Virus record (IMG/VR): IMGVR_UViG_2939521961_000011
Strand: one strand, 5' to 3'
Length of the DNA: 64,000 nt
DNA from: a virus
Taxonomy: Duplodnaviria > Heunggongvirae > Uroviricota > Caudoviricetes
Below are positions 37,101-40,100 of the stretch, in pieces. Within the stretch, counting starts at the first letter, position 1. Every line of letters begins with the position of its first letter. The position numbers were made by a program.

Positions 37101-40100
37101 TCGATAAAACGAAATATCAGCTCCAGCTGAGAGCCATACTTCTCTTCAAATGCCACGGTATCCGCATGAAGCTCGTTGTGATGCTCCCGACACAGCGGTA
37201 GCGTGAAAATATCGTGAGATTTTGTCCCCATTCCGCCCTGACCATGACCAATCAGGTGATGGGGATCGTCGGCTGGCTTACCACAACACGCACACGGCTG
37301 TGTCTTTACCCAGCGTGTGTATTTCTCATTTACCCAGCGGCGACGTTTAGGTCGTTTCATGAAGGATTCCGGAGACTCCGGATCAACGGCAATGCTGACC
37401 ACCGTCTTTTCCTGTGGTGGGTTCTGTTGCTGGTGGGTGTGAGACGGTAGCGCAATATTTTTTGTGCGCTGCTTCAGTATGCTGGTGGCGGTCTGTTCTC
37501 CCGGTATGATGTCGCTTTCACGGTATACGGAGCGGATTTTTTCCGCACGCAACCCCAGCGAACGACGTAATACCGCTTCCGGTAGCGCGTCCGCCACCTG
37601 ATTGCGGACCGCCCACCAGGATAATTCAGCCAGCGATAATTCCCGTTCCTGTATGCCATTCATTGCGTGGCGGATGACGTCAATCATCCATGCTGACAGG
37701 TTTTGTTGAGCAAGTTGCTCGAGTGATTCTGATGTCTGGTCGCGCAGCTGGTTGTCACAGTGCCAGCACAACACCATCGCGCCGGTACCATAACGGTGAA
37801 TGACTGTTTCGCTGTGATGATAATCGCCGTGTGGCCACTGGCAGGATTTCACGTGACGTAATAACCAGTCAGACAGTGCACCTGCACCACCTGCTGCACG
37901 AATAACCCGCTCATCGCTGAAAAATGGCAGTAATGTTTTATCCTCTGCCAGCGGCTGGCGAACGGCAGGAACGACTCCGGACGGCAGACCGCGCATGTTT
38001 TTCGGTTCCGGCTCCACCAATATTCTGCCGTTATGGAATACTGACATTGATTCACGGCCTGGCTTAACGATAACCAGACCGAGTTCCGGTACCAGAACAG
38101 GTCGAAGTAATACCCGCACGTTACCTCCAGATGCGCTGCTGGAATGTGCGGGACGGACGCGGTGGGCGTTCGGAATAAGGGAGCCTGGCGGAGATTATCC
38201 AGTGACGACGATCGAAGCTGAGATCTTTCTGAAACTCGTAACCACGCCTGCGGTAACACTGGATCAGCCATTCGGCCTGTTCTTCAGTGCATAGGGGATG
38301 CTGGAACCAGTCGGTTTTAAATACGTGCGAACACCGTCCTTGCCTACTGGCAAGGGCGGCAGAATTGTGCAATCTGCTATCGTGCGCCATCGGGATCTCC
38401 GGTGGCACGGTGTTTCTCAGCGACGGTTCAAGTCAGCCTGATTTTATAGCTGCTTCTGAATATCATCAACAGGTAATCCTGCCAACTCTCTTACCTCAGA
38501 AAGAAGAGAAAGGCTTACAACAACCTCATTACTTCGCATAACAAAACCACATTGAAAAGAACCATCACTGTTTCTGTAAACAACAACCGGGCGCGTGCTC
38601 TCATAAAACCCCGGGATCAAACTGGCTGGGATTTTCACAACACCTCCTGACGTAAAGGAAATGAAATGCATTATCGCTTCTCTCGGACTATAACCATGAA
38701 AAGAGACGCATTTCACTCAGTAAATCTGAGGATTTTATGCGCAAGAACAATGACTTTTTCTGTCTGCCGTTTATACAATCTGAATTACGTCTGTTTTTTG
38801 AACACCGATAAATCAGCAAGCATTCTCAAATAAAGATTGCCTCCATAGTCCACATGGTGTAACACTATGTGTTATATAAAATGCAGAGGCAGGTATGCGA
38901 ATTTTCAAAAACGCCTGGTTTGAACGTTTCGCTCGAAAACATCGGATTTCCGATAAATCGCTGCGCAAAATCGTGGAGCAGGCCGATAAGGGGATCATAT
39001 CCGCAAATTTGGGTAGTGGTGTCATTAAACAAAGATTAGCCCGAAGTGGTGGCGGAAAATCAGGCGGTTACCGGACAATAATTTTTTACCGCGTTGCAGA
39101 AAAAGCCTTTTTCATCTACGCATACGCAAAGAATGAACGAGAGAATATCACTGCTATAGAGGAAAATGCTTTTCGAAAAGCCGCTCCCCATGTCCTCAAT
39201 CTTACTGATGAACAGCTGGCACAATTGATTCAACAAGGCCAGTTCACGGAGGTACCCAATGAGTAAAAATTACCGCAGTGATGCACTTGCATCTGTACAT
39301 GAAATGATGGAGTCACTCCATGATATCGGTGCAATCACAAAACAAACTATGCGCGAATTCGATGAAACTTGTCTTCAGCCTGCGCCGGTAATGTCTCCGG
39401 AAAGGATCCGTGCACTGCGAGAACGAGAGCATCTGTCTCAACCTGTTTTTGCCAGATACCTCAACGTCAGTAAAAACCTGATATCAGACTGGGAACGAGG
39501 AGTGAAACGCCCGGGAGGTGCAGCTCTTCGGCTTCTTTCAGTTGTCGAGAAAAACGGGATCCAGGTAATATCCTGATATTCTAATACAACAAAACCCGCC
39601 GAAGCAGGTTAAGTGCGGGTGCGTTGAGGATGCCTGACACATCAGAGGTGGCGAGGGATTTCTCCCTCGCCAGGTCTCTTACTCCTCAGGTTCGTAAGCT
39701 GTGAAGACAGCGACCTCCGTCTGGCCGGTTCGGATTCGTACCTCGCAGAGGTCTTTCCTCGTTACCAGTGCCGTCACTATGACGGTTAAACAGATGACAA
39801 TCAGGGCGATTAACATCGCCTTTTGCTGCTTCATAGCCTGCTTCTCCTTGCCTTTCGGCACGTAAGAGGCTAACCTACATGTGCAAAGCATGAAATTGGC
39901 CTCAGATTAATGTTAAGCGTCCTGCAAGACGCGTAATGTTAACTGGGGCTTTTCTCTGTCTGCCTTACGGCGGCATGCCCGAGGCAGACAGCCTCAAGCA
40001 CCCGCAGCAATTCTACTTAACTCTTCTTTCCCCGCAAATCATTTTATCCCCGATGGTAATGTTCTCCCGATATGGGAATTCCCATATCAAGGTTAACTCA

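What the first reader, a model, noticed from the sequence alone, without database searches (positions are those of the whole stretch)
38895..39834. Toxin-first RelE/ParE-like plus HTH antitoxin pair lying convergent to a hokD-type toxin gene
In K-12 Qin, hokD follows relBE in one operon. Here the hokD coding sequence is conserved, but the adjacent type II module is a different, toxin-first pair (123-aa basic toxin overlapping a 105-aa HTH protein by 8 nt) on the opposite strand. That is two addiction or abortive-infection-type modules side by side with a non-canonical arrangement.
Basis: partly seen in the sequence, partly recalled or inferred. Interest (0 to 1): 0.5.

Follow-up and report, generated by a model that had tools for sequence, protein, structure and literature searches.

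The report
Ordinary HigBA2-type toxin-antitoxin beside hok/sok
A prophage in this E. coli sequence carries two independent, already well-understood "addiction" modules back to back: a HigB2/HigA2-type toxin-antitoxin gene pair and a complete hok/sok locus. The layout is normal for these families, not a new kind of system.

Summary
A 123-aa basic ORF (38895-39266, +) overlaps a 105-aa HTH ORF (39259-39576, +) by 8 nt. Both converge on a hok gene (39679-39834, -) whose peptide is identical to K-12 HokD.

The toxin is a full-length member of Pfam PF06296 (161 bits), the family of V. cholerae HigB2. Toxin and antitoxin are 41% and 44% identical, without gaps, to Coxiella burnetii ToxP/AntitoxP, a validated translation-inhibiting TA pair. 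All five HigB2 active-site residues align. Toxin-first order is the rule for this family, and the 8-nt overlap recurs in Halomonas and Salmonella. So "non-canonical" is wrong.

The pair is a roughly 750-bp, low-GC cassette with a conserved inverted repeat at its candidate promoter. It sits antisense in the accessory region of lambdoid prophages, in three different contexts, with or without hok. Unlike K-12 hokD, the hok locus here is complete (mok, sok, tac/fbi). K-12 relBE lies upstream of hokD in place of that leader; this pair lies downstream, so it is not a swap at one site.

RefSeq already annotates all three genes, in about 4% of complete E. coli genomes. This is a new, untested member of a known kind, and interest is low.

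The parts
38849..38878 (+). Candidate sigma-70 promoter of the toxin-antitoxin operon: -35-like TCCACA (38849-38854), an 18-nt spacer, and an extended -10 TGtTATATA (38870-38878). The Shine-Dalgarno GAGG lies at 38886-38889.
   Evidence: Read directly; this is inference. The -10 part lies in a motif conserved upstream of homologous pairs in E. coli, Salmonella and Halomonas. The consensus scan did not report this site. It found only ATGACT-N18-TACAAT at 38750-38779, an alternative candidate, and the number of sites was no higher than in shuffles.
38860..38874 (.). Candidate operator: inverted repeat TAACAC-TAT-GTGTTA, inside a wider imperfect 19-bp repeat TGTAA-N9-TTATA (38858-38876). It overlaps the candidate -10.
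   Evidence: The motif GTGTnACACTATGTnTTAyA lies 18-37 nt upstream of the toxin ATG in the window and in L003, L004, L006 (Halomonas), L010 and L012 (Salmonella). V. cholerae HigA2 binds a single inverted repeat of the same 19-bp span, TGTACGC-N5-GCGTACA, overlapping the -10 (PMC11006873). Binding here is not tested.
38895..39266 (+). Toxin gene: 123 aa, HigB2/ToxP-type, Pfam PF06296; predicted ribosome-dependent mRNA endonuclease.
   Evidence: PF06296 at E 1.4e-47, covering 1-120 of 120 model positions. 41% identity over 120 aa without gaps to Coxiella ToxP/CBUA0028. PDB HigB-2 at E 4e-4. K45, R47, R60, Y77 and K79 align with the HigB2 active-site residues K49, R51, R64, Y82 and K84.
39259..39576 (+). 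Antitoxin gene: 105 aa, HigA2/AntitoxP-type. Acidic N-terminal part (residues 1-44) and a C-terminal XRE helix-turn-helix (about 45-99). Its start overlaps the toxin stop (ATGAGTAA).
   Evidence: HTH_3 and HTH_31. PDB HigA-2 at E 6.7e-8 over residues 45-99. 44% identity over 96 aa to Coxiella AntitoxP/CBUA0027. N-terminal part pI 5.0, C-terminal part pI 10.8.
39592..39610 (.). Hairpin AAACCCGCCGAAGCAGGTT. It is the intrinsic terminator of the hok mRNA (T-run on the minus strand) and the joint between the type II cassette and the hok locus.
   Evidence: Terminator-like site on the minus strand. It occurs once in the window, with 0 expected by chance. In O104:H4 the same sequence occurs twice, after the antitoxin and after hok, flanking a phd/doc cassette. 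On the + strand no U-run follows it.
39615..39673 (-). 3' part of the hok mRNA, holding the fbi element (CCUCAACGCACCCG, about 39616-39632) that pairs with the mRNA 5' end.
   Evidence: RNAduplex and the MFE fold of the 415-nt candidate mRNA pair 40004-39967 with 39673-39615 at -41.4 kcal/mol.
39679..39834 (-). hok toxin gene: 51 aa, identical to K-12 HokD.
   Evidence: PF01848 at 81.7 bits. 51/51 identity. RefSeq annotation is hokD.
39679..39891 (-). mok-type reading frame: 70 codons, in frame with hok and sharing its stop codon.
   Evidence: Phage 933W annotates mokW with the same 213-nt layout. phrog_251 'MokW-like host killing' at E 6e-33.
39883..39953 (+). sok antisense RNA gene. Coordinates are inferred by transfer from sokW of phage 933W.
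   Evidence: sokW is annotated as 71 nt overlapping the mokW start, and this region is 91% identical to 933W. The + strand folds into a long hairpin followed by UUUCUCU, z-score -4.3.
39829..40003 (-). hok mRNA leader: tac, the mok translation initiation region and the Sok target.
   Evidence: Rfam RF01794 'sok' at 117.3 bits against a gathering score of 59, E 5e-27, covering the full model 1-157.

Best explanation
Two independent, self-contained toxin-antitoxin modules lie tail to tail in the accessory (moron) region of a Qin-like lambdoid prophage.

Module 1 (38858-39610, + strand) is a type II system of the HigB2/HigA2 kind, the same kind as ToxP/AntitoxP. One promoter drives toxin then antitoxin, translationally coupled through the ATGAGTAA overlap. 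By inference, the toxin enters the ribosomal A site and cleaves mRNA being translated, using K45, R47, R60, Y77 and K79. The antitoxin's N-terminal part wraps the toxin and neutralises it. Its C-terminal HTH dimer binds the inverted repeat over the -10 element and represses the operon. If the unstable antitoxin is no longer made, through loss of the prophage or shut-off of host expression by an infecting phage, free toxin stops translation.

Module 2 (39590-40004, - strand) is a complete type I hok/sok locus. A stable, folded hok mRNA is activated by 3' trimming. Translation of hok is coupled to mok and blocked by the short-lived Sok antisense RNA.

What is shown: family membership, conserved gene pair, conserved active-site residues, conserved upstream repeat, cassette boundaries, and completeness of hok/sok. 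What is inferred: toxicity, neutralisation, operator binding, and the biological role (prophage stabilisation and/or phage exclusion).

The adjacency comes from cassette shuffling in a variable region, probably by recombination at a shared terminator hairpin. It is not evidence of a functional partnership.
For: Family membership of the toxin:
- PF06296 full length, 161 bits.
- 1418 homologues, all PF06296.
- V. cholerae HigB2 itself scores above the PF06296 cut-off.

Link to a validated system:
- 41% and 44% gap-free identity to Coxiella ToxP and AntitoxP.
- In that system the toxin inhibits translation and the antitoxin binds both the toxin and the promoter (PMC10098735).

Other support:
- Active-site residues are conserved.
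- Toxin-first order is the family norm. The pair, with its 8-nt overlap, is conserved in Halomonas and Salmonella, and the pair also in a cyanobacterium.
- A conserved inverted repeat lies at the -10, as for the HigA2 operator.
- The cassette behaves as a unit. It has 44.9% GC against about 50-52% in the flanks. It occurs in three contexts, always antisense to its neighbours.
- hok/sok is complete.
Against: - No experiment exists on this E. coli pair; literature searches by accession and by name found none.
- The residue aligned with the catalytic Tyr (Y77) is Phe in most homologues.
- The proposed promoter was not picked up by the consensus scan.
- Toxin-null alleles are common among relatives, so the toxin is dispensable. 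A +1 G frameshift is present in about a third of sampled near-identical records, and O104:H4 carries a double frameshift.
- The toxin matches no PADLOC defence model.
Confidence: 0.8

Rival explanations
1. The two modules are functionally coupled by convergent transcription. Transcripts of the type II operon read through the joint hairpin and run antisense across the hok mRNA 3' end (fbi) and the hok coding region. This would alter hok mRNA processing or stability, so one module modulates the other.
For: The antitoxin stop codon (39576) is only 16 nt from the hairpin at 39593-39610. On the + strand that hairpin has a C-A mismatch and no U-run after it. The O104:H4 copy of the cassette, by contrast, ends in a clean bidirectional terminator, AAAACCCGCCGAAGCGGGTTTT. 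About 201 of 217 carrier genomes keep this exact tail-to-tail layout.
Against: There is no direct evidence of read-through. The cassette works as a unit in contexts without hok, and hok/sok loci work alone elsewhere, for example in 933W. The prevalence of the layout is explained by clonal spread of one prophage: identity is 99-100%. Two further strong hairpins downstream could stop or pause polymerase.
Confidence: 0.06
2. The pair is a decaying or domesticated remnant. The toxin is no longer active, and the retained, well-conserved HTH protein serves as an anti-addiction factor or prophage regulator rather than as half of a working TA system.
For: Toxin frameshift alleles with an intact antitoxin occur in two independent lineages. 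In O104:H4 the antitoxin is 104/105 identical while the toxin gene is about 16% diverged and broken.
Against: In this window the toxin ORF is intact and full length against the Pfam model. It keeps all aligned active-site residues and the overlap with the antitoxin. The intact allele is the majority: 20 of 31 sampled near-identical records.
Confidence: 0.1
3. The pair is not a toxin-antitoxin system at all. It would be a two-gene regulatory unit, an HTH repressor plus a partner, controlling neighbouring prophage genes.
For: The second protein is a generic XRE HTH with weak hits to phage repressors and restriction-modification control proteins. PHROGs lists both families as 'unknown function'.
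Against: The close homologue pair ToxP/AntitoxP is an experimentally validated TA system. The pair travels as a unit into plasmids and non-prophage chromosomes with unrelated neighbours.
Confidence: 0.03

Closest known systems
Coxiella burnetii QpH1 ToxP/AntitoxP (CBUA0028/CBUA0027)
   Same: This is the closest experimentally validated relative. Toxin identity is 41% over 120 aa and antitoxin identity 44% over 96 aa, both without gaps. It is also toxin-first with overlapping genes. The toxin inhibits translation, and the antitoxin binds the toxin and the promoter (PMC10098735).
   Different: It is carried on a plasmid of an obligate intracellular pathogen, not on a lambdoid prophage. ToxP is annotated with a 30-residue N-terminal extension. 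There is no hok/sok neighbour.
Vibrio cholerae HigB2/HigA2 (superintegron; PDB 5JAA, 8A0X)
   Same: Same Pfam family, PF06296, and the same toxin-first order. Active-site residues K49/R51/R64/Y82/K84 align with K45/R47/R60/Y77/K79. The antitoxin has the same design: an N-terminal neutralising part plus a C-terminal XRE HTH (E 6.7e-8). Its single inverted-repeat operator overlapping the -10 has the same 19-bp span.
   Different: It is only a distant relative (toxin E 4e-4, about 35% identity over 48 aligned columns). The window toxin is 13 aa longer and has a conserved C-terminal helix-helix-strand extension. The DNA-reading residues of HigA2 (R68, E71, N72, R77) are N, S, D and V here, and the inner operator bases differ, so specificity differs.
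E. coli K-12 Qin relBE-hokD
   Same: Homologous prophage backbone (Q, ydfU/DUF968) and an identical HokD peptide. A RelE-superfamily type II module lies next to hokD.
   Different: RelE belongs to Pfam PF05016, is antitoxin-first, and has a RelB antitoxin. relBE lies upstream of hokD on the same strand and replaces the mok/sok leader. Here the type II pair lies downstream, is convergent, and hok/sok is complete.
hokW/mokW/sokW of Shiga-toxin phage 933W (and R1 hok/sok)
   Same: About 91% nucleotide identity across the locus. Same 70-codon mok in frame with hok, and the same position for the sok antisense RNA. Rfam sok model at 117 bits.
   Different: In 933W the locus lies near the right end of the phage genome with other neighbours and no type II pair beside it.

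Membership tests
HigB2/HigA2-type type II TA (Pfam PF06296 toxin + XRE-HTH antitoxin) | Toxin matches PF06296 above the curated cut-off. | tested here: met
   161.3 bits against a cut-off of 27, covering model positions 1-120 of 120.
HigB2/HigA2-type type II TA (Pfam PF06296 toxin + XRE-HTH antitoxin) | Significant sequence similarity of both proteins to experimentally validated members. | tested here: met
   ToxP E 4e-33 and AntitoxP E 1e-30. PDB HigB-2 E 4e-4 and HigA-2 E 6.7e-8.
HigB2/HigA2-type type II TA (Pfam PF06296 toxin + XRE-HTH antitoxin) | RelE-like active-site residues (V. cholerae HigB2 K49, R51, R64, Y82, K84). | tested here: met
   They align with K45, R47, R60, Y77 and K79 (residue list). 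K45, R60 and K79 are invariant and R47 is at least 90% conserved in 31 homologues. Position 77 is Phe in most homologues.
HigB2/HigA2-type type II TA (Pfam PF06296 toxin + XRE-HTH antitoxin) | RelE/ParE (BECR) fold of the toxin. | tested here: inconclusive
HigB2/HigA2-type type II TA (Pfam PF06296 toxin + XRE-HTH antitoxin) | Toxin gene first, antitoxin immediately downstream in one operon. | tested here: met
   8-nt overlap. The same order occurs in Halomonas, a cyanobacterium and Salmonella. The family gene order is T/A in PMC11980606.
HigB2/HigA2-type type II TA (Pfam PF06296 toxin + XRE-HTH antitoxin) | Antitoxin with a C-terminal XRE-type HTH DNA-binding and dimerisation domain. | tested here: met
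   HTH_3 at 32.3 bits (cut-off 23) over residues 50-94. Alignment to HigA-2 residues 39-93.
HigB2/HigA2-type type II TA (Pfam PF06296 toxin + XRE-HTH antitoxin) | Antitoxin N-terminal disordered segment that folds on the toxin. | not tested
   Indirect evidence only. Residues 1-44 are acidic (pI 5.0) and are conserved with AntitoxP from residue 10. No structure or complex was modelled.
HigB2/HigA2-type type II TA (Pfam PF06296 toxin + XRE-HTH antitoxin) | Inverted-repeat operator overlapping the promoter -10. | tested here: met
   An inverted repeat at 38860-38874 is present and the motif is conserved across genera. Actual binding cannot be tested here.
HigB2/HigA2-type type II TA (Pfam PF06296 toxin + XRE-HTH antitoxin) | Toxicity, neutralisation by the antitoxin, and ribosome-dependent mRNA cleavage. 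| not testable with these tools
   Needs expression and in vitro translation assays.
hok/sok type I TA | Hok/Gef membrane peptide. | tested here: met
   PF01848 at 81.7 bits. Identical to K-12 HokD.
hok/sok type I TA | Overlapping mok reading frame. | tested here: met
   70-codon ORF at 39679-39891, with the same layout as the annotated mokW.
hok/sok type I TA | Conserved hok leader and sok antisense RNA. | tested here: met
   RF01794 at 117.3 bits against 59. Hairpin plus U-run on the + strand. Coordinates transferred from sokW.
hok/sok type I TA | Long-range 5' (tac) to 3' (fbi) pairing of the full-length mRNA. | tested here: met
   Predicted duplex between 40004-39967 and 39673-39615 at -41.4 kcal/mol, also present in the MFE fold. 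In silico only.
RelBE proper (E. coli K-12 relBE) | Toxin of Pfam PF05016, RelB-type antitoxin, antitoxin gene first. | tested here: not met
   The only Pfam hit of the toxin is PF06296. The antitoxin is an XRE HTH, and the order is toxin-first.
Catalogued anti-phage defence systems (PADLOC-DB) | Match of the effector to a defence-system model. | tested here: not met
   The toxin has no hit. The antitoxin has only generic HTH hits.

The most novel reading that the evidence does not exclude
In this fused tail-to-tail layout the type II operon has lost its own U-tract terminator. Its transcripts would then read antisense into the hok mRNA 3' end (fbi) and coding region. The activity of a type II promoter, which is de-repressed when antitoxin is lost, would tune activation of a type I toxin. 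That would be a cross-type TA coupling created by cassette recombination.
Probability: 0.05. Interest if true: 0.45.

Novelty: new member of a known kind. Interest (0 to 1): 0.13.

Why it matters
It matters little beyond annotation. The RefSeq labels "RelE/ParE family toxin" and "helix-turn-helix protein" can be sharpened to a HigB2/ToxP-type toxin and a HigA2/AntitoxP-type antitoxin. The work also shows that K-12 hokD is the truncated version of a locus that is complete here.

One modest general point emerges. Lambdoid prophages of pathogenic E. coli (O26, O145, O157, O104:H4) shuffle several TA cassettes in one accessory region: hok/sok, phd/doc-like and HigBA2-like. The same short terminator hairpin is found at the cassette joints, and toxin-null alleles with intact antitoxins are frequent. 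This could interest people who study prophage stability or phage exclusion in STEC.

Tried and rejected
- **RelBE membership: rejected.** The toxin hits only PF06296, not PF05016, and gene order and antitoxin type differ.
- **NCBIfam:** no model matches the toxin. The antitoxin has only sub-threshold HTH hits such as MqsA, YiaG-like PRK10072, DicA and NadS.
- **PADLOC:** no defence model matches the toxin.
- **PHROGs:** both proteins fall in 'unknown function' families, which is uninformative.
- **Literature:** searches for the RefSeq accessions and for COG4737 returned nothing. No paper on this E. coli pair was found.
- **"The pair replaced relBE at the same site": rejected** by the block structure of the blastn comparison.
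- **"hok adjacency is intrinsic to the cassette": rejected** by contexts without hok.
- **Consensus promoter scan:** gave no site directly upstream of the toxin, so the promoter proposal rests on reading the conserved motif.
- **Caveat:** Only its core, residues 41-95, is verified by the alignment.
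Full report
**Observation.** ORF 38895..39266 (+, 123 aa) and ORF 39259..39576 (+, 105 aa) overlap by the 8 nt ATGAGTAA. On the opposite strand, 39679-39834 encodes a 51-aa Hok peptide inside a 70-codon ORF (39679-39891). The first protein is basic, with pI 10.0. None of this is chance: the three proteins score 161, 32 and 82 bits on PF06296, HTH_3 and HOK_GEF, against cut-offs of 27, 23 and 22.

**Identity of the type II pair.** PF06296 carries the Pfam name "RelE", but it is not the family of K-12 RelE. A 2025 survey of the superfamily lists it as the family whose members are called HigB2. Its members are described as ribosome-dependent mRNA-degrading toxins with gene order toxin/antitoxin (PMC11980606).

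- The best solved-structure matches by sequence are V. cholerae HigB-2 (E 4e-4) for the toxin and HigA-2 (E 6.7e-8, over the HTH at residues 45-99) for the antitoxin.
- V. cholerae HigB2 itself scores 34.5 bits on PF06296, above the cut-off.
- A much closer validated relative exists. The window proteins are 41% (120 aa, no gaps, E 4e-33) and 44% (96 aa, no gaps, E 1e-30) identical to CBUA0028 and CBUA0027 of the Coxiella burnetii plasmid QpH1.
- Those are ToxP and AntitoxP. ToxP blocks growth and translation, and AntitoxP rescues growth, binds ToxP and binds the promoter (PMC10098735).

**Active site.** The residues defined for V. cholerae HigB2 are K49, R51, R64, Y82 and K84. They align with K45, R47, R60, Y77 and K79 of the window toxin. 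In an alignment of 31 homologues, K45, R60 and K79 are invariant and R47 is nearly so. Position 77 is usually Phe.

**Conservation of the pair.** Homologous toxins in Halomonas, a cyanobacterium and Salmonella are each followed by a 105-106-aa HTH_3 protein. In Halomonas and Salmonella the overlap is the same 8 nt. Toxin-first order and the overlap are therefore family traits, not an oddity of this locus. The family is common on plasmids: 326 PLSDB records, including 19 from Coxiella. It is rare in sequenced phage genomes: 2 records.

**Regulatory signals.** A motif, GTGTnACACTATGTnTTAyA, lies 18-37 nt upstream of the toxin ATG. It is shared by the window, two other E. coli contexts, two Salmonella prophages and Halomonas (alignment).

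- In the window it forms the inverted repeat TAACAC-TAT-GTGTTA (38860-38874), within a wider imperfect 19-bp repeat TGTAA-N9-TTATA.
- It overlaps a plausible extended -10, TGtTATATA (38870-38878).
- V. cholerae HigA2 represses its operon through a single inverted repeat of the same 19-bp span, TGTACGC-N5-GCGTACA, overlapping the -10 (PMC11006873).
- The base-reading residues of HigA2 are not conserved here, so the target sequence should differ, as it does.
- This operator and promoter assignment is inference. The simple consensus scan did not report it, and offered only a site at 38750-38779.

**The hok locus.** The peptide is identical to K-12 HokD, but the locus is complete where K-12's is not.

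- The Rfam sok/hok-leader model matches 39829-40003 at 117 bits against a gathering score of 59.
- The 70-codon in-frame mok has the same layout as the annotated mokW of phage 933W. sokW maps to about 39883-39953 on the + strand, where a long hairpin followed by a U-run is predicted.
- The 5' end of the predicted 415-nt mRNA pairs with a 3' element at about 39616-39632, which is the tac/fbi pairing.
- A minus-strand terminator sits at 39593-39610.

**Relation to K-12 Qin.** blastn shows only two shared blocks. The first is 36176-38430, covering Q, the DUF968/ydfU gene and a small ORF. The second is 39591-39848, running from the hok terminator to 14 nt upstream of the hok ATG. In K-12, relBE abuts that point and so replaces the mok/sok leader upstream of hokD. 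In the window the type II pair lies on the other side, downstream of hok. The two type II modules are therefore not alternatives at one site.

**The pair is a mobile cassette.** The O104:H4 outbreak strain shares only 38858-39610 (83.6%) and, separately, the hok locus. A phd/doc-type cassette lies between them, and an ORF6N gene lies on the other side. A chicken isolate shares 38685-39564 and has no hok nearby. In every context the pair is antisense to the surrounding prophage genes. The cassette has 44.9% GC against about 50-52% in the flanks.

**The joint hairpin.** The sequence AAACCCGCCGAAGCrGGTT occurs at both ends of the doc cassette in O104:H4 and once, as a fused joint, in the window. 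The window layout therefore looks like the product of recombination between two copies of that terminator.

**Distribution in E. coli.** 217 of 5426 complete genomes (4%) carry the pair, always on the chromosome. About 201 of them have this same layout next to hok. RefSeq already labels the genes "type II toxin-antitoxin system RelE/ParE family toxin", "helix-turn-helix domain-containing protein" and "hokD".

**Decay in relatives.** A +1 G in the G-run at 38970-38973 frameshifts the toxin in two inspected strains. It is probably present in about 10 of 31 sampled near-identical records. The O104:H4 toxin carries two frameshifts, while its antitoxin is 104/105 identical to the window's. The window allele is intact.

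**Verdict.** The best explanation is two independent, known kinds of TA module placed tail to tail by cassette shuffling in a prophage accessory region (confidence about 0.8). The rivals are:

- Antisense coupling through read-through, because the + strand lacks a U-run after the joint hairpin. About 0.06.
- A decaying module retained for its antitoxin. About 0.1.
- Not a TA system at all. About 0.03.

I found no publication on this particular E. coli pair. It is an untested new member of a validated family, the "non-canonical" reading does not hold, and interest is low.

Noticed in passing
window 40712-40909 (-), upstream of ORF 40106-40657 (-): Rfam hits to C4 antisense RNA (69 bits), isrK (51 bits) and the c4 a1/b1 target (27 bits, below its gathering score of 46.7) lie directly upstream of an ORF6N anti-repressor gene. 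This looks like a P1/P7 immI-like antisense switch controlling an anti-repressor inside a lambdoid prophage.
   Followed up: no
window 38970-38973; L013 1516-1888; L014 1490-1888: A +1 G in a four-G run frameshifts the toxin in other STEC strains while the antitoxin stays intact. About 10 of 31 sampled near-identical records span 702 rather than 701 bases.
   Followed up: partly
L003 (E. coli O104:H4 HUSEC2011) 3962-5779: In the 2011 outbreak lineage the homologous toxin is a pseudogene with two frameshifts, and the antitoxin is 104/105 identical to the window's. A phd/doc-type pair lies between this cassette and hok, so three TA modules sit in a row.
   Followed up: partly
window 39592-39610; L003 4695-4714 and 5536-5555: The same hairpin of about 20 bp, AAACCCGCCGAAGCrGGTT, sits at the joints of different TA cassettes. 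It may serve as a short recombination site for cassette exchange.
   Followed up: partly
L002 (K-12 Qin) 5276-5346 versus window 39835-40003: K-12 hokD shares only 14 nt upstream of its ATG with the complete locus. relBE has replaced the mok/sok leader.
   Followed up: yes
window 35550-35799 (-): Three tRNA genes lie downstream of the Q antiterminator: Arg-tct, Arg-tcg and a CAT-anticodon tRNA. ARAGORN calls the last one Met and RefSeq calls it Ile. This is typical of Stx-phage-like prophages.
   Followed up: no
window 34000-35265 and beyond 51327: The window is 99.99% identical to the O26:H11 str. 11368 prophage only over 35265-51327. It has about 1.3 kb extra at 34000-35265, and its flank differs after 51327, 53 bases past the 3' end of the integrase gene. 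The window therefore comes from another strain or another integration site.
   Followed up: no
L012 (Salmonella enterica contig) 2963-6124: A Salmonella lambdoid prophage carries the homologous pair, also antisense to its neighbours. A DUF1187 gene, an ORF6N gene and a hok gene lie within 2.5 kb, so the same set of accessory elements appears in yet another order.
   Followed up: no
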